Positions 52,208-58,755 of a DNA stretch of 64,000 nt are shown in pieces. The notes below the pieces were generated by a model that saw nothing but the letters and a program-made list of their open reading frames with translations, searched no databases and was not told where the DNA came from. Numbering within the stretch: position 1 is the first letter of the stretch; every line of letters begins with the position of its first letter. The stretch comes from Escherichia virus TH58: the sequence record MT446423.1; one strand, written 5' to 3'. The position numbers and the translations under genes are program-made.

Positions 52208-52843
52208 ATGAAAACTACTCCTATTACTATCGCTATTGACGCAATCATAAAACAAGCTTCTTCTTTGGCCGCTATGGCCAAAGTAATTAGTCAAAACCCT
52301 GCTCGTTATAATGCTATTCTAGAAACTCTTCGACGCCCAGGACTTAGTAATTATGAAAGTCGTGTAATTATTACAGGTGTTGGTAAGAACGCTAATATCG
52401 CAACTAAAGCTTCTGAGACTTTTGCTTCATTAGGTATTCCTAGCATGTATTTGAACACCGGGCATTATTCTCACGGCGATGCAGGATTCATTGCGCCTAA
52501 TGATGTGTTGATTCATATTAGTCGTTCTGGTAAAACTGAAGAAATGATAGGCGTGGCTAAGCATCTTAAAATGATTCGTCCGAACGTCAAACAGATTCTG
52601 TTGCATTGTAACCCAGACATTCCACAAGAAAATGAAGCCCTTTTTGATTACTCTTTCTGTACAGGCATCGCAGTAGAGGTTGATGAGAATTCTCTGGCTC
52701 CGACTATGTCCACTACATTGTTGTTAGCGCTTATCGATACGTTTGCTATCAACCTTTCGTCTGAACGTGGATTTACCTCTAATGACTTCCTTAAGTTCCA
52801 CCCTGGTGGTGCACTAGGTGCCATGTTACGAGGCGAACAATGA
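52208..52843 (+). CDS. SIS-domain sugar-phosphate isomerase (KdsD/GutQ-like, probable arabinose-5-phosphate isomerase)
   Basis: ITGVGKNANIATKASETFASLGIPSMYLNTGHYSHGDAGF...HISRSGKTEE...HPGGALG follows the KdsD SIS pattern; 211 aa, no CBS domains. Confidence 0.65.
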   Translation: MKTTPITIAIDAIIKQASSLAAMAKVISQNPARYNAILETLRRPGLSNYESRVIITGVGKNANIATKASETFASLGIPSMYLNTGHYSHGDAGFIAPNDVLIHISRSGKTEEMIGVAKHLKMIRPNVKQILLHCNPDIPQENEALFDYSFCTGIAVEVDENSLAPTMSTTLLLALIDTFAINLSSERGFTSNDFLKFHPGGALGAMLRGEQ

Positions 52844-53024: not shown

Positions 53025-54710
53025 ATGAAAAAAGCTGTTATTCTTGGTGCTGGACTGGCAACTCGTTTGTATCCAATAACGCATCATATTCCTAAGGTGC
53101 TTGTTAACTATAAACAAGACACTATTCTGAGCAATTTGTATACAATTTATTCTGACCTTGGCGCAGATGAAATTATTGTAGTAGTTCATTCAAAATTTGC
53201 TGAAACCGTTCGAGCTTATTGTGAGCAAGAAGGGTTCAATGTGACTATTCGTACAGTTGATGAAGCATATGGTTCTGCTTATGCTCTTGCTAAATTGCAC
53301 AAAGATTTAGACGGTCATAATGTAATTGTTAACTGGTGTGATATTATTCCCGATTTTGGTTCATGGTCTTGGAATGTTAACGCAATCTATGTTAAGGGTG
53401 ACGAATGTCGATATAATTTCGACGGTGAAAATATCACTAACGTAGGTTCAACAGGTGGTAATGTTGTAGGAATTTATCAGTTCAAAGACTGGGAATTCTA
53501 TATGGGTTCTACTGATGAGGAAATTCATGAATACTGCAAAGGACGTGATTTCGTAGAATTCCTTTACGGCAGCGCATTCAATAAATCAGAGCTTATGAAT
53601 CTAATTGATTTAGGTGATATGCCTAAACTTGAAAAGGCTCATGAAGTTCGTGAACTTAATCGTAGTTTTAATGCGGTTGAAATTGGTGAAGAAACTGTAA
53701 CTAAATTCGCATTAACCGAACAGGGCCGATCTCTTCAGAAAGATGAGATTTCATGGTATCTTAAAGTGAAATCAGATTCAGTTCCTCAGTTAGTTTCTGT
53801 TAATGAAAATAACTTTGAAATGGAACGCATTAAAGGTAAGCCGGCATTTGAATATATTAAATCCAAATCGAGTCTTGCTCGTCCACAAATTGTTGATGCA
53901 ATTTTAGATGCACTGAAATTCAGCACAGACACTTATTTTGTAAGTCCTGAAACTGTTCGTCGTGATTTCACTAAAGAATTCTATACTAAAGTCATCGATC
54001 GTTGTGAAAGTATTCAACCATTGATTGATTCATTTGGTAAAATCACACATGTGAACTACACTAAGATTGGACGTCTGAAGCCAATGTTGAAACAAGCTTT
54101 AGAACACCTTATTCGTTATCATAACCGTTCTCAGGGACAGTACTCTGTTATTCATGGTGACCCGAACTTCAGTAATACTATGATTACTGATAATGGTGAA
54201 GTAAAGTTTATCGACCCTCGTGGATATTTTGGTGAAACCAAGATTTACGGGCCAAAATTGTATGACGAAGCTAAAGTGCTTTACGCTGTTTCAGGTTATG
54301 ATGAATTCAACGCCAATCCGACCTGGGGACAGTTTACTATTGATGAAATAACCTGTAATGTGACTATTAACATCAATCCATTAGTTTACAAATATGGAAA
54401 GATGAGTTCGTTTAACGTGTATCATCATTTGGCAGTGGCAATTATCTGGATTGCATTAGGTGGTTATTTCAAGAATAATCCACTTAAAGCGGTAGCCGCA
54501 TATTATAAAGGTATGGAACTTCTGACTAAGCAATTACGTAACATGGGCCGTGTACTTCAGGACGGCACTATTAGTTATGATGTAGCAGAACCTGTAACGG
54601 CTACTCTGATTACAAAAAATCCTGGTAAATGGGTACTAACTGATAAAGAAACTGGTGTTTCTTATCGTCCAATCGGTGGCGATAACACTCATCAATGGGA
54701 ACGAATCTAA
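53025..54710 (+). CDS. Bifunctional sugar-1-phosphate nucleotidyltransferase / sugar kinase
   Basis: N-terminal MKKAVILGAGLATRLYPIT (NDP-sugar pyrophosphorylase G-loop); C-terminal HGDPNFSN and FIDPRG (APH/choline-kinase-like motifs); 561 aa. Confidence 0.65.
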   Translation: MKKAVILGAGLATRLYPITHHIPKVLVNYKQDTILSNLYTIYSDLGADEIIVVVHSKFAETVRAYCEQEGFNVTIRTVDEAYGSAYALAKLHKDLDGHNVIVNWCDIIPDFGSWSWNVNAIYVKGDECRYNFDGENITNVGSTGGNVVGIYQFKDWEFYMGSTDEEIHEYCKGRDFVEFLYGSAFNKSELMNLIDLGDMPKLEKAHEVRELNRSFNAVEIGEETVTKFALTEQGRSLQKDEISWYLKVKSDSVPQLVSVNENNFEMERIKGKPAFEYIKSKSSLARPQIVDAILDALKFSTDTYFVSPETVRRDFTKEFYTKVIDRCESIQPLIDSFGKITHVNYTKIGRLKPMLKQALEHLIRYHNRSQGQYSVIHGDPNFSNTMITDNGEVKFIDPRGYFGETKIYGPKLYDEAKVLYAVSGYDEFNANPTWGQFTIDEITCNVTININPLVYKYGKMSSFNVYHHLAVAIIWIALGGYFKNNPLKAVAAYYKGMELLTKQLRNMGRVLQDGTISYDVAEPVTATLITKNPGKWVLTDKETGVSYRPIGGDNTHQWERI

Positions 54711-55096
54711 TGCACCGTGTAAAAAACATGCTTAATCTTTGTTTTGACGTCGATGATTGTATAACAGAGTGGAATAACAATCGTGATTACGTGAACTTCA
54801 AACCGGACGTCGAAATGGTGTCTGCCATTAATGCCCTGTATGATGCAGGGCATACCATAACGCTTTACACTGCTCGCGGTATGAAGTCAGTCGGTCCTGG
54901 TCGTATAGCAATTGACATTCTCCCAAGTCTGATTCAGAACTTGGCAAACATTGGATTGAAGTACCATAATTTGCTAACACATAAACCAGTATATGATTGG
55001 ATTATCGACGACAAAGCTATGCGTCCTGACGAATTCAAAGCTCTTATGAATAAAGGCGAATTCGAAACATTTAAATCATATAAACCGAATCTATAA
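54710..55096 (+). CDS. Small HAD-superfamily phosphatase
   Basis: Motif I LCFDVDDCIT, motif II TLYTARG, motif IV WIIDDK; 128 aa. Confidence 0.55.
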   Translation: MHRVKNMLNLCFDVDDCITEWNNNRDYVNFKPDVEMVSAINALYDAGHTITLYTARGMKSVGPGRIAIDILPSLIQNLANIGLKYHNLLTHKPVYDWIIDDKAMRPDEFKALMNKGEFETFKSYKPNL

Positions 55097-55150: not shown

Positions 55151-56311
55151 ATGAATACCTTTAAAATCGGAACGAATTTTGATTTAGCTCTTCTTGATAA
55201 AATCGTAGAGCTCAATAAAACTTATCCTAATAGCTTGATAAACGAAGTATACGGCTCTACAAGAGAAATGGCTTTTGTAGCAGCCAGACCTGATTTTAGG
55301 CTTCCTGACGTTGACAAAAAGATGTTAGAAGATTACGTTAAACGTTGTAACGAATTAGGTATTTGCTTTAACTATACACTCAACACGATAAATCCTGGTT
55401 CAAAAAGAGAACTAGTTGAGTGGAAGAAGAAAGCTATTCAGGATTATGTTCAGTATCTTTGGTCAATAGGTGTATGGCGTATTACTATCGCTAACCCTGT
55501 TGTTATGGAAATTGTTCGTGAAGTCAATAAAGACATTGAGATTGAAGTTTCAACAATTCTACATGTCGATGCTGTAACTCAAATCAAATACTTGCATGAC
55601 CAATATAATATCAAAAAGGTCTGCTGTGGAATTCACAAGAACCGTTCAGTTTCTTTCCTGAAGCGTGCAGCAGAGTTTTGCAATAAGAACAATATAATAT
55701 TTGAAGTTCTTGTAAATGAGTTCTGTTCTAATGCTGGTAAAGGGTATACAACACATTGTAGTTATCGTGACTCTTGCTATATTTTCCATAGCACCGATGT
55801 TACAGTAGATGATGCCAAATCCTTAAATGGATATCCAATGCAACACTGTATTAAAGCTCGTGATACAGATCCATTTAACTGGTTGAGAACTCGTTTTGTT
55901 CGTCCTCAAGATTTGAAACTTTATAATGATATTGGTATCACTCAATTCAAAGTTTCAGGACGTACAGGTAGCACAGACTACATTTTGAAAGTTCTTGAAG
56001 CATACGCTTCTGAAAAGTTTGAAGGTAATTTGTTAGAACTGTGGAAGCCTTTAGAGACTATTTTCACTCTTGAAAACGAAACTGAGTTTTCACATACAGT
56101 AAATATTGAAACCTCTTTGTTAGATGGCTTTTTAGAAAAAAGGTGGTTCAAACATCCAGATTTCGATTGTGCTAATGAAATCTGCGGGACGACGTGTACA
56201 TATTGTGAAAGATATTATAAACGTCAGTTATCTAAAAATGGGTTATCAGAAAACTCTATATCTATTATTGATATAACTAACTCTGACGACGCTTTGAGGT
56301 ACCCAGAATGA
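55151..56311 (+). CDS. Uncharacterised protein with C-terminal 4-Cys cluster (possible metal or Fe-S site); weak U32-family resemblance
   Basis: C-terminal CANEICGTTCTYC (C-x4-C-x3-C-x2-C); GITQFKVSGR resembles a U32-family K-I-E-G-R segment; the U32 signature itself is not matched; 386 aa. Confidence 0.35.
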   Translation: MNTFKIGTNFDLALLDKIVELNKTYPNSLINEVYGSTREMAFVAARPDFRLPDVDKKMLEDYVKRCNELGICFNYTLNTINPGSKRELVEWKKKAIQDYVQYLWSIGVWRITIANPVVMEIVREVNKDIEIEVSTILHVDAVTQIKYLHDQYNIKKVCCGIHKNRSVSFLKRAAEFCNKNNIIFEVLVNEFCSNAGKGYTTHCSYRDSCYIFHSTDVTVDDAKSLNGYPMQHCIKARDTDPFNWLRTRFVRPQDLKLYNDIGITQFKVSGRTGSTDYILKVLEAYASEKFEGNLLELWKPLETIFTLENETEFSHTVNIETSLLDGFLEKRWFKHPDFDCANEICGTTCTYCERYYKRQLSKNGLSENSISIIDITNSDDALRYPE

Positions 56312-56457
56312 TTTCTAGAAAAACTTTTAACCACCAACTTAATGAAGAGATTTTGACTACGAAAATTAACAGCAACGAACAAATTCTTAAAAAGGCCCTT
56401 ATTGGCCTGTTTGAAACTAAAGCGGCTAAAGTGATTAAAGAACCTGTTCAATTGTAA
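56308..56457 (+). CDS. Small ORF (49 aa) ending at an in-frame TAA followed by 30 more open codons
   Basis: ATGA overlap with upstream gene; frame stays open after the TAA at 56455-56457 until 56546. Confidence 0.3.
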   Translation: MISRKTFNHQLNEEILTTKINSNEQILKKALIGLFETKAAKVIKEPVQL

Positions 56458-56589
56458 TACTACGCTGATGCATTTCTTCATAGTGTTCTTGGAAATATCG
56501 ATGCTGAAGCTTTACGTTATATCAACACCGCTAAGAAATTCAAATAAGCTTTATGAATTGAGTATATAATAAATTGTATTGAGGTAAAC

Positions 56590-57306
56590 ATGGGAAAACA
56601 TAACACAATGAAATATATTAAAGCCGCAGATTTTCAATCCGCATTTAAAGCTGTCAATCGTGAAATTTTAGAAAACCCGGAATTCGTTACTGATTCTCGT
56701 ATTGGACGTTGTAATGAAATTGGGTCTATGACAGTAGTTGTTGACACTCCATCATCATTCAAAATGACCGACCCACGTATTAACCGCATCTCTTATGAAT
56801 ATGCTGAAGATTTCTGGAAGTTTATGATTTCTGGCGGTACCGACGCAGAAGAAGCATTTAAGGCATATCCTAATGTCGCTAAATTTATTTCTAAACCAAA
56901 ATCAGATGCTTTGCCTGCGAACTTCAACACTTTCTATGGTCCACGAATTGCGGCCCAGTTACCAGCTCTTCTCAAAGAACTTAAAGAGAAACCTAATTCA
57001 CGAAGAGTTGTGTTCCAAATTCTAGAAAGTTCAGATCAGGCTTTGCTTGATTCGGACGAAACACTTGAATATCCATGTACTGACTCAGTGACTTATTATA
57101 TTCGTGATGGTAAGCTTTATACCCACTGTCATATGCGTTCTCAGAACTGTGCTGTTGTTATGCAGTTGGATTTTTATCTCCAAGGAAAATTACTTCATTA
57201 TATCGCTAACGAATGTGGTGTAGAAGTTGGTGATTATACTCATACCATGGTAAGTGCCCATGTGTTTGAACGTGATTTTGATTATGTTAAAGGATTCCTT
57301 GACTAA
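56590..57306 (+). CDS. Thymidylate-synthase-fold pyrimidine hydroxymethylase (divergent gp42 analog)
   Basis: Catalytic-Cys region EYPCTDSVTYYIRDGKLYTHCHMRSQN parallels TS and dCMP hydroxymethylase; downstream Asp (MQLDF) at the specificity position; 238 aa. Confidence 0.6.
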   Translation: MGKHNTMKYIKAADFQSAFKAVNREILENPEFVTDSRIGRCNEIGSMTVVVDTPSSFKMTDPRINRISYEYAEDFWKFMISGGTDAEEAFKAYPNVAKFISKPKSDALPANFNTFYGPRIAAQLPALLKELKEKPNSRRVVFQILESSDQALLDSDETLEYPCTDSVTYYIRDGKLYTHCHMRSQNCAVVMQLDFYLQGKLLHYIANECGVEVGDYTHTMVSAHVFERDFDYVKGFLD

Positions 57307-58205
57307 TGGCTATTTTCCGCGTACCTATCTTGAGTATGCGGTCTTATGAAACTGGTCAGTATGCTATCCTTAAGGATGGTAACTTCCAACTTCATTTGCA
57401 CCGTGCTAATCCAGGTGATGTGATTACATATCCACGTAATGCATCTGATATTAAAGAATGTGAACGTCTTTTCCCAGAATTTAAGTTTGTTCCATTATGG
57501 TATAAAGATAACGCGTATAACACTCGTAAATATTTCTGGTCTGAAAATGAATTTGTGGTTGATTCATTAATTGCTTATTATGATTGTGATTTTCTAATCA
57601 CAGATATCACTGGATATGACGGCGCTTTTGATGTGGAATTCAATTTCAATATCACTGCAGACCCTAATAAACCGCGTTTTTATATTGACGAATTCTTAAA
57701 AACCGACATGTTGTCGGTTAATCGTTCACTTCAAACTACTGTGTTGAATGAACGTCAAAAGGAAGTGCTGGTTAACGCTGGTGCGGATGGTAATAAGATT
57801 ATCGTAACGCAGAAAGTTATACGTCCTTCCATCATGCAGCGTCTTGTAGGTGATTTGGCTCCTATTCATCTAGATGGTATTTTTCATCCATTTCGAATTA
57901 GTGACCCGTGCTATCGTTTTGAACAAGTGGTTGAATGTGCAATTCAATTAGGTCAACCGCTTTATATAACCGATCCAAATAATAGCTTCGACAGAAATAA
58001 GTATCCTGAAGAAGCGCTGATTCGAATTTTTAAACCAACTAAAACTGAGTACTATCAAATTCTTAAAGGTCGGCCGAAGATTCAATATTTCGAAAATCCT
58101 GAAGAAGTATTCCATCCAGGTCTTGGCGAGTTCATCTACTTTAACGCTTTAATTTCTTCGCCGTATAATATACCTAAATATGAAGATGTCGTAATCGAGG
58201 AATAA
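57306..58205 (+). CDS. Uncharacterised protein (candidate DNA sugar transferase by context)
   Basis: 299 aa; no motif recognised; sits between the hydroxymethylase and a kinase where T4 has beta-gt. Confidence 0.4.
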   Translation: MAIFRVPILSMRSYETGQYAILKDGNFQLHLHRANPGDVITYPRNASDIKECERLFPEFKFVPLWYKDNAYNTRKYFWSENEFVVDSLIAYYDCDFLITDITGYDGAFDVEFNFNITADPNKPRFYIDEFLKTDMLSVNRSLQTTVLNERQKEVLVNAGADGNKIIVTQKVIRPSIMQRLVGDLAPIHLDGIFHPFRISDPCYRFEQVVECAIQLGQPLYITDPNNSFDRNKYPEEALIRIFKPTKTEYYQILKGRPKIQYFENPEEVFHPGLGEFIYFNALISSPYNIPKYEDVVIEE

Positions 58206-58206
58206 A

Positions 58207-58755
58207 ATGGCTAAAATTATTTTAGTAGATGGCCCGGATAATGCTGGTAAAACAACTTTCATTAATGACATAATGGAAATTAGTGAAAGATATGTAAAGA
58301 TTGATTTCCCTAAACGAACAGTTGACGGACGTTTCGATGTTAAGTCTCGAAATGAAGTTGGTTGTTTCGAAACGATGTTGAATTATTTAGATCCTACTAA
58401 GATTTATCTGTTAGACCGTGGATATATTAGTAACTGGGTTTATGGACGTATTCGTCAAGATGCTGACTCGGTTCTTGACGTTTATGAACAGGATTATGTT
58501 CGTCTTTGCCAAAACCACGATGTGTTCACAATTATTTTAACACGTAACGAAATGACTGAAAGTTTTGAAGACGACCTTATTACTTTGTCTTCATTCGGTT
58601 TTAATACAGTAATTTCATATTTTGAAGAGTTTGCAATCCATAACGAAATCCAAACGTATCAATTACTTAATCATGATGGTGCTAACAAAGTTATAGGATT
58701 TAATGCAAGCGAACGTAATAATTTGATTACAGAAATTATCAAATGGGCTCGTTAA
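58207..58755 (+). CDS. P-loop nucleoside/nucleotide kinase-like protein
   Basis: Walker A ILVDGPDNAGKTT and LLDRGYIS (dNK/TMPK-like DR(Y/S) motif); 182 aa. Confidence 0.5.
   Translation: MAKIILVDGPDNAGKTTFINDIMEISERYVKIDFPKRTVDGRFDVKSRNEVGCFETMLNYLDPTKIYLLDRGYISNWVYGRIRQDADSVLDVYEQDYVRLCQNHDVFTIILTRNEMTESFEDDLITLSSFGFNTVISYFEEFAIHNEIQTYQLLNHDGANKVIGFNASERNNLITEIIKWAR

What the first reader, a model, noticed from the sequence alone, without database searches (positions are those of the whole stretch)
55151..56311. 386-aa protein with a C-terminal C-x4-C-x3-C-x2-C cluster inside the modification module
Four clustered cysteines (CANEICGTTCTYC) suggest a metal or Fe-S site; a KVSGR segment loosely recalls U32-family enzymes, which perform O2-independent hydroxylations of RNA pyrimidines and quinones. 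The U32 signature is not properly matched, so this is speculative. Its location between the sugar-donor genes and the hydroxymethylase suggests a role in base or sugar modification, or it may be the transferase.
Basis: inference. Interest (0 to 1): 0.55.

Follow-up and report, generated by a model that had tools for sequence, protein, structure and literature searches.

The report
Phage U32 enzyme: likely oxygen-free cytosine hydroxylase
This RB69-type phage gene encodes a U32-family iron-sulfur-type enzyme that most likely makes the 5-hydroxycytosine needed for the phage's sugar-coated DNA without molecular oxygen, using the metabolite prephenate as oxygen donor; this role has not been assigned to it in any paper I could read.

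The parts
55151..56311 (+). U32-family protein (RB69 ORF050c homolog), proposed prephenate-dependent O2-independent cytosine-nucleotide C5-hydroxylase
55430..56008 (+). Peptidase_U32 (PF01136) domain match, residues 94-286
55718..55849 (+). Core motif E190-x-C192-x10-C203-x5-C209-x23-C233: candidate [4Fe-4S] ligands plus the essential Glu
   Evidence: All invariant in the 121 close homologs; in the 38 distant ones C209 is 37 plus one gap and E190 was not tabulated. hhalign puts E190/C203/C209 on RlhA E161/C169/C176, residues essential in RlhA and TrhP (PMC6599085)
55949..55963 (+). KVSGR motif (K-[VIL]-[ST]-G-R), counterpart of K-I-E-G-R in RlhA, TrhP and UbiU
56168..56206 (+). C-terminal C340-x4-C345-G-x2-C349-x-Y-C352 cluster: second metal or Fe-S site
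   Evidence: Invariant in more than 150 homologs. RlhA also needs C-terminal Cys residues (PMC5727448)
56308..56457 (+). Truncated ORF049c homolog (49 aa, in-frame TAA; 79 aa in Bas46), start overlapping the U32 stop. This slot holds a chorismate mutase in other genera
56590..57306 (+). ThyA-family O2/flavin-dependent 5-hydroxy-dCMP synthase (RB69 gp48 homolog, 99.6% aa identity)
   Evidence: PMC13326640 sections 24 and 29
57306..58205 (+). DNA arabinosyltransferase 1 (RB69 gp46:47 homolog). Homologs flank the U32 in 26 distant loci
58207..58755 (+). Thymidylate-kinase-like nucleotide kinase (RB69 gp45 homolog); fused to the glycosyltransferase in some distant phages
52208..52843 (+). SIS-domain arabinose-5-phosphate isomerase (RB69 gp55 homolog)
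53025..54710 (+). Bifunctional sugar kinase / nucleotidyltransferase (AfhE-like; RB69 gp52:53), intact here
54695..55096 (+). HAD-type phosphatase (AfhF-like; RB69 gp51)

Best explanation
The 386-aa protein is a compact, single-chain member of the U32 'peptidase' family acting as an Fe-S hydroxylase. It probably converts a deoxycytidine nucleotide, most likely dCMP, to the 5-hydroxy form without O2, taking the oxygen from prephenate as proposed for RlhA, TrhP and UbiU/V. The product would be phosphorylated by the phage kinases, incorporated into DNA and arabinosylated. In RB69-type phages it would be the anaerobic counterpart of the adjacent O2/flavin-dependent ThyA-like 5-hydroxy-dCMP synthase, letting the phage keep modifying its DNA in the anoxic gut. 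In many uncultivated phages of anaerobes it appears to be the only hydroxylase. The mid-domain Cys set would hold the catalytic-type [4Fe-4S] cluster. The invariant C-terminal CX4CGX2CXYC site would hold a second cluster or metal, possibly an electron relay like the second cluster of the UbiU-UbiV heterodimer. Shown here: family membership, fold, residue conservation, gene linkage and distribution. Inferred: Fe-S binding, prephenate use, substrate and physiological role.
Against: There is no biochemical or genetic test of this protein. No U32 enzyme has yet been reconstituted in vitro (PMC10990095). The Cys spacing (C192-x10-C203-x5-C209-x23-C233) departs from the canonical CX6CX15CX3/4C, and the KIEGR Glu is Ser/Thr. 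Mosigviruses, including this window, have no chorismate mutase, and JS98-like coliphages have the O2-dependent synthase but no U32, so the host-lifestyle correlation is imperfect and rests on few independent lineages. Only +-7 kb of the distant contigs was inspected directly, and the contig-wide scan used subfamily-specific peptide patterns. Lee et al. label the protein 'sugar or heterocycle reductase'. He et al. 2026 and Mahler et al. 2025 could not be read and may contain contrary or pre-empting data.
Confidence: 0.6

Rival explanations
1. It is a sugar-pathway enzyme: a 'sugar or heterocycle reductase' (Lee et al. 2026, Table 1) or an 'enzyme involved in UDP-arabinose biosynthesis' (BASEL annotation of Bas46). 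It would act on the arabinose donor rather than on the base.
For: It sits between the sugar-activation genes and co-occurs with SIS, AfhE-like and HAD genes in many loci. TIM-barrel folds are common among sugar-phosphate enzymes.
Against: As cited in PMC13326640, UDP-Araf synthesis from Ara5P was reconstituted with AfhE and AfhF alone. Maestro, DLP3 and JS98 clusters lack the U32, and Maestro and DLP3 are reported to make ara-5hoC. No known U32 enzyme acts on sugars. The chorismate mutase and DAHPS linkage is unexplained by a sugar role. The U32 also occurs without sugar genes, next to dCMP deaminase/Tmk or NMP-kinase-methyltransferase genes.
Confidence: 0.1
2. It is a prephenate-dependent hydroxylase with a different target: RNA (phage or host tRNA U34, rRNA C2501-like), cytosine already in DNA, or dUMP/dCTP rather than dCMP.
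For: The two nucleic-acid U32 precedents act on RNA polymers (PMC5727448, PMC6599085). dCMP deaminase is adjacent in 7 distant loci, which could feed a dUMP route.
Against: It lacks the extra C-terminal domains of RlhA (653 aa, DUF3656) and TrhP (453 aa); only PF01136 is found. It is embedded in DNA-modification clusters with dNMP kinases, dCTPase/dUTPase-like genes and DNA glycosyltransferases. RB69 DNA contains arabinosyl-5hoC and no other reported hydroxylated base (PMC13326640).
Confidence: 0.15
3. It is a true peptidase (collagenase-like PrtC), as RefSeq annotates it.
For: The family name and annotations say so. Two U32 members have reported collagenolytic activity (PMC5727448 discussion).
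Against: No catalytic mechanism is known for U32 'peptidases'. Nine invariant Cys, the RlhA-type essential residues, the prephenate-supply linkage and the nucleotide-metabolism context have no rationale for a protease.
Confidence: 0.02

Closest known systems
RlhA (YdcP), E. coli 23S rRNA C2501 5-hydroxycytidine synthase (U32 family)
   Same: Same chemistry on the same base: C5 hydroxylation of cytosine. It has the PF01136 domain and is the best E. coli profile match. Counterparts of essential E161/C169/C176 are invariant. It also depends on conserved C-terminal Cys residues, and it needs prephenate and Fe-S biogenesis (PMC5727448).
   Different: RlhA is 653 aa with DUF3656 and binds 50S precursors. 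The phage protein is 386 aa with a different C-terminal Cys motif, a 5-residue insertion before C203, non-canonical positions for the third and fourth Cys, and K-V-S-G-R instead of K-I-E-G-R. Its presumed substrate is a deoxynucleotide.
TrhP/TrhO dual tRNA ho5U34 pathways
   Same: They provide the logic of a redundant pair: a prephenate-dependent U32 enzyme (TrhP, O2-independent) and an unrelated O2-dependent enzyme (TrhO), proposed to serve life in both anoxic and oxic conditions (PMC6599085). Here the pair would be U32 plus the ThyA-like flavoenzyme.
   Different: The substrate is tRNA uridine. TrhP has an extra C-terminal domain. The O2-dependent partner is a rhodanese-family protein, not a ThyA homolog.
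UbiU-UbiV anaerobic ubiquinone hydroxylases
   Same: They are U32 proteins of about 300-330 aa acting on a small molecule. Each binds a [4Fe-4S] via four Cys whose positions vary between paralogs. Prephenate was shown by 18O labelling to be the O donor, and they are the anaerobic counterpart of flavin/O2 hydroxylases (PMC6747719, PMC10990095). The two clusters per heterodimer parallel the two Cys sites in one phage chain.
   Different: They form a heterodimer and need UbiT. The substrate is a lipid quinone. The phage protein scores 19.4 bits against the UbiU equivalog cutoff of 440.
RB69 gp48 / HY126-type ThyA-family 5-hydroxy-dCMP synthase
   Same: Same proposed product (5hodCMP), same gene cluster, same downstream pathway (PMC13326640).
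   Different: It has an unrelated fold and mechanism: a flavin cofactor, with O2 as the oxygen source. It is present in phages of aerobes, where the U32 is absent.
Mk0906 (PDB 5d88), the only solved U32 structure
   Different: 14% identity, 247 aa, function unknown, and no C-terminal Cys module.

Membership tests
Peptidase U32 family (Pfam PF01136) | Match to the PF01136 profile above the gathering score | tested here: met
   42.4 bits vs GA 22.4, E 6.3e-11, residues 94-286. Precomputed PF01136 on nearly all homologs.
Peptidase U32 family (Pfam PF01136) | U32 TIM-barrel fold | tested here: met
U32 O2-independent hydroxylases (RlhA/TrhP/UbiU/UbiV) | Essential Glu and first two Cys of the U32 motif (RlhA E161, C169, C176; TrhP E162, C170, C177) | tested here: met
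   hhalign aligns invariant E190, C203 and C209 with them, with a 5-residue insertion. Essentiality is from PMC6599085.
U32 O2-independent hydroxylases (RlhA/TrhP/UbiU/UbiV) | Four conserved Cys in a CX6CX15CX3/4C-type motif binding a [4Fe-4S] cluster | tested here: inconclusive
   Five conserved core Cys exist (invariant in the close set, near-invariant in the distant set), but the spacing is C192-x10-C203-x5-C209-x23-C233, and the third and fourth canonical positions do not align. UbiU and UbiV also deviate (PMC6747719). 3D clustering could not be measured because no coordinates are exposed.
U32 O2-independent hydroxylases (RlhA/TrhP/UbiU/UbiV) | K-I-E-G-R motif | tested here: inconclusive
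   K, G and R are invariant, but Glu is replaced by Ser/Thr (K-[VIL]-[ST]-G-R).
U32 O2-independent hydroxylases (RlhA/TrhP/UbiU/UbiV) | Dependence on prephenate | not testable with these tools
   Indirect support only: chorismate mutase or DAHPS-CM genes lie adjacent to or overlapping the U32 gene in 17 T4-like and 13 distant loci.
U32 O2-independent hydroxylases (RlhA/TrhP/UbiU/UbiV) | Fe-S cluster binding and O2-independent hydroxylase activity | not testable with these tools
   Needs anaerobic purification, UV-vis/EPR and activity assays.
RlhA subfamily | DUF3656 and a long C-terminal region (about 650 aa), with ribosome binding | tested here: not met
   386 aa, and only PF01136 detected.
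UbiU equivalog (NCBIfam NF047963) | Score above the curated cutoff | tested here: not met
   19.4 bits vs cutoff 440.
Radical SAM enzymes | CX3CX2C cluster with an open Fe site in a radical-SAM fold (PF04055) | tested here: not met
   CGTTCTYC fits CX3CXYC, but there is no PF04055 hit. A fourth invariant Cys precedes it, and it lies in a short C-terminal tail of a U32 barrel.
   The fold is a TIM barrel. The GT homolog is the separate ORF 57306-58205.

The most novel reading that the evidence does not exclude
This is the first viral prephenate-dependent, O2-independent nucleobase hydroxylase: a second, evolutionarily unrelated route to 5-hydroxycytosine (or another 5-hydroxypyrimidine) in DNA. 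In uncultivated phages of gut and other anaerobes it would be the sole route. These phages would carry their own chorismate mutase or DAHP-synthase-chorismate-mutase genes as auxiliary metabolic genes to supply the organic oxygen donor. Related cellular modules (NMP kinase-methyltransferase-U32) would make O-methylated hydroxy-nucleotides.
Probability: 0.45. Interest if true: 0.85.

Novelty: new variant of a known kind. Interest (0 to 1): 0.72.

Why it matters
Arabinosyl-5-hydroxycytosine DNA was worked out only in 2025-2026, and the only known hydroxylase needs O2. Yet these phages, many of them therapy candidates, infect facultative anaerobes of the gut. An O2-independent hydroxylase would explain how the modification is maintained in anoxia. 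It would extend prephenate-as-oxygen-donor chemistry from RNA and quinones to DNA precursors. It could also give the U32 field a small, soluble, single-chain enzyme with a simple nucleotide substrate for the in vitro reconstitution that is still missing. And it would reveal shikimate-pathway genes as phage auxiliary genes dedicated to DNA hypermodification. It also predicts a large set of uncultivated phages of anaerobes with glycosylated 5-hydroxypyrimidine DNA.

Tried and rejected
Sequence search of PDB chains with the protein or the family profile gave only chance hits. hhalign against single E. coli UbiU, UbiV and TrhP sequences was weak (prob 6, 0.3 and 23); only RlhA was informative. Mosigvirus ORF049c was tested as a diverged chorismate mutase and rejected (no Pfam hit, hhalign prob 0.16). 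The DAHP_synth_1 neighbour was considered as a KDO8P synthase, since it would fit the SIS and KdsC-like genes. This was rejected: 163.7 bits to DAHP synthase vs 55.7 to KDO8PS, plus the fused CM domain. The single ThyA-family ORF near a distant U32 (L032) was tested as a cytosine hydroxylase and rejected: L143/D169/N177 mark an ordinary thymidylate synthase. The radical-SAM reading of CGTTCTYC was rejected (see membership test). The AFDB fold library was unavailable. Model coordinates are not exposed, so Cys-Cys distances could not be measured. He et al. 2026 and Mahler et al. 2025 are not held. Full-text searches for U32 + chorismate mutase + phage and for prephenate + 5-hydroxycytosine found no paper making this link. 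One paper search (AfhA/AfhB terms) was wasted on unrelated hits.

Full report
OBSERVATION. The window is an RB69-like T4-type phage (Mosigvirus). The region 55151-56311 is 98.5% identical in DNA to RB69 ORF050c, and the protein is 100% identical to those of several coliphages. The ORF is 386 aa with an ATG start. The C-terminal CANEICGTTCTYC (C340, C345, C349, C352) and KVSGR (267-271) are present as described. In 121 homologs down to 48% identity all four C-terminal cysteines are invariant, as are C158, C192, C203, C209 and C233. The same holds in 38 further viral and metagenomic homologs down to about 40% identity (there C158 is 36 of 38 and C209 is 37 plus one gap), giving the consensus C-x4-C-G-x2-C-x-[Y/W]-C, and K267, G270 and R271 are invariant.

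WHAT THE NEIGHBOURS ARE. The cluster is SIS isomerase (52208-52843), AfhE-like kinase/nucleotidyltransferase (53025-54710), HAD phosphatase (54695-55096), U32, a small ORF, a ThyA homolog (56590-57306), a glycosyltransferase (57306-58205) and a Tmk-like kinase (58207-58755). Lee et al. (NAR 2026, PMC13326640) showed that RB69 DNA carries arabinosylated 5-hydroxycytosine, not hydroxymethylcytosine. They also showed that the ThyA homolog gp48 makes 5-hydroxy-dCMP using a flavin, with the oxygen coming from O2 (18O2 labelling). Their Table 1 lists RB69p050 only as 'sugar or heterocycle reductase' from fold hits, without experiment or discussion. Their discussion mentions the RNA hydroxylation pathways but does not connect them to gp50. 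As cited there, UDP-arabinofuranose synthesis needs only AfhE and AfhF.

LINK TO PREPHENATE. In Enterobacter phage Entb_45 the 79-aa ORF overlapping the U32 stop codon is a type II chorismate mutase (PF01817 40.9 bits, GA 27). tblastn finds this mutase in 51 phage records from about 12 host genera, always beside the U32 and/or ThyA genes. A broader profile finds it just downstream of the U32 in all 17 non-Mosigvirus T4-like loci held, with catalytic R11, R28, K39, S84 and Q88 conserved. In Shewanella phage Thanatos the U32-CM pair has moved relative to the ThyA gene but remains a unit with overlapping stop and start codons. Among distant homologs (40-55% identity) in uncultivated, often jumbo, phages, five loci have a DAHP-synthase-chorismate-mutase fusion adjacent to the U32 or one gene away (DAHP synthase 163.7 bits vs KDO8P synthase 55.7). 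Six have a stand-alone mutase overlapping the U32 3' end, and two have a DAHP synthase alone immediately downstream. Chorismate mutase makes prephenate, which is genetically required for RlhA and TrhP and is the 18O-proven oxygen donor for UbiU/V (PMC5727448, PMC6599085, PMC10990095). No other prephenate-using enzyme family is present in these clusters. Mosigviruses carry an unrelated 79-aa ORF (phrog_8601) in this slot, so this window's enzyme would depend on host PheA/TyrA.

IT FILLS THE HYDROXYLASE SLOT. I clustered the ORFs around 38 distant U32 genes. Homologs of the window's glycosyltransferase occur in 26 loci (sometimes fused to a Tmk-like kinase), AfhE-like enzymes in 18, SIS in 11, a KdsC-type HAD phosphatase in 16, Tmk-like kinases in 8, dCMP deaminase in 7 and dUTPase/dCTPase-like genes in 11. 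Typical orders are GT(-Tmk)-SIS-AfhE-HAD-U32 and dUTPase_2-Tmk-GT-U32. These are the window's cluster minus the ThyA-like hydroxylase. The only ThyA-family ORF nearby (L032) is an ordinary thymidylate synthase. A collection-wide scan for the 5hodCMP-synthase subfamily found 43 viral contigs. These share only the 14 T4-like contigs with the U32 list and none of the 33 distant ones. Conversely, Acinetobacter phage Maestro and coliphage JS98 have a HAD-to-ThyA-like segment with no U32 or CM in it, and DLP3 also lacks it. The U32 is therefore dispensable for arabinosyl-5hoC synthesis in air.

OXYGEN. The synthase is found in 373 phage records, including 57 Acinetobacter and about 20 Rhizobium phages plus some Agrobacterium ones. 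The U32 is found in 221 records, all from phages of Enterobacterales or Shewanella. A scan of one genome per prokaryotic species found 23 loci, all in obligate anaerobes or MAGs from anoxic or gut habitats, several of them the same phage-type clusters. RB69-type phages also carry anaerobic ribonucleotide reductase (PMC13390438). The TrhP/TrhO and UbiUV/UbiIHF precedents show the same pairing of a prephenate/U32 enzyme with an O2-dependent enzyme (PMC6599085, PMC10990095). Counter-examples are the JS98-like coliphages, which lack the U32, and the correlation among cultured phages rests on few independent lineages.

CONCLUSION. The protein is a U32-family, probably two-cluster Fe-S enzyme. I judge it to be a prephenate-dependent, O2-independent C5-hydroxylase of a cytosine deoxynucleotide that backs up the O2-dependent synthase (confidence about 0.6). 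Its compact size, lack of RNA-binding extensions and constant company of dNMP-metabolising enzymes favour a mononucleotide substrate, but that step is the least secure. The rivals are a sugar-pathway role, an RNA or polymer-DNA substrate, and a protease. All are weaker because none explains the chorismate mutase and DAHPS linkage together with the nucleotide context.

NOVELTY AND LIMITS. GenBank calls the gene 'peptidase' or 'hypothetical'. Full-text searches found no paper linking U32, chorismate mutase or prephenate to phage 5hoC. However, He et al. 2026 and Mahler et al. 2025 could not be read. The mechanism class is known, while the substrate class (DNA precursor), the viral setting and the phage-encoded prephenate supply would be new, hence 'new variant of a known kind'.

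Noticed in passing
window 56308-56569: The small ORF whose start overlaps the U32 stop (RB69 ORF049c / Bas46 bas46_0143, 79 aa, phrog_8601, unknown function) carries an in-frame TAA at codon 50 here, where Bas46 has GAA. This leaves a 49-aa ORF followed by the rest of the reading frame. It could be a pseudogene, a strain variant or a sequencing error.
   Followed up: partly
L012:6158-6397, L013:5884-6228, L014:6983-7240, L015:5986-6231: Phage-encoded AroQ chorismate mutases (75-114 aa) occur in T4-like phages of Enterobacter, Serratia, Shewanella, Klebsiella and others, mostly annotated 'hypothetical protein'. In the phage collection this mutase lineage occurs only next to the U32/ThyA-like genes.
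   Followed up: yes
L056:8079-9194 (also L042, L044, L045, L046; DAHPS alone in L005:9145-9891 and L030): Jumbo and uncultivated phages encode a DAHP synthase with a C-terminal chorismate mutase domain next to the U32 gene: shikimate-pathway auxiliary genes in viruses.
   Followed up: partly
L080:3044-7134, L077:4186-8077, L003:5135-9098 (also L069, L075, L076, L078, L079): A second conserved module occurs in genomes and MAGs of anaerobes (Phocaeicola faecalis, Tannerella, Lachnospiraceae and others): GP88 (PF17338), a guanylate-kinase-like domain fused to a SAM methyltransferase, an unknown ~267-aa protein, then the U32. It sometimes sits beside STAND NTPase, Eco57I-type or PD-(D/E)XK genes. 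It may hydroxylate and then O-methylate a nucleotide.
   Followed up: partly
L081-L087 (e.g. L082:6980-9340): More distant (27-31% identity) U32 paralogs occur as tandem pairs in Clostridia genomes, with a C-terminal CX3CX2CX2C tail. They are reminiscent of UbiU-UbiV or YrrN-YrrO heterodimers. L003 also has a second U32-like gene next to a radical SAM/SPASM protein and a nucleoside deoxyribosyltransferase.
   Followed up: no
window 53025-54710 and 57306-58205: The AfhE-like gene (561 aa) and the arabinosyltransferase gene (299 aa) are each one intact ORF here. In the RB69 reference each is split in two (ORF052/053 and ORF046/047), which Lee et al. attribute to sequencing errors in the reference.
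   Followed up: partly
L065 (JS98) and L066 (Maestro): JS98-like Dhakavirus coliphages and Acinetobacter phages have the O2-dependent 5hodCMP synthase cluster with no U32 or CM between the HAD phosphatase and the ThyA-like gene. JS98 also lacks the SIS isomerase in this segment. The working hypothesis predicts that these phages cannot hydroxylate cytosine anaerobically.
   Followed up: partly
L049:2237-4054, L039, L055, L061: In some distant phages the gp46:47-like DNA glycosyltransferase is fused to a thymidylate-kinase-like domain (about 605 aa). This mirrors the adjacent but separate GT and kinase genes of the window.
   Followed up: partly
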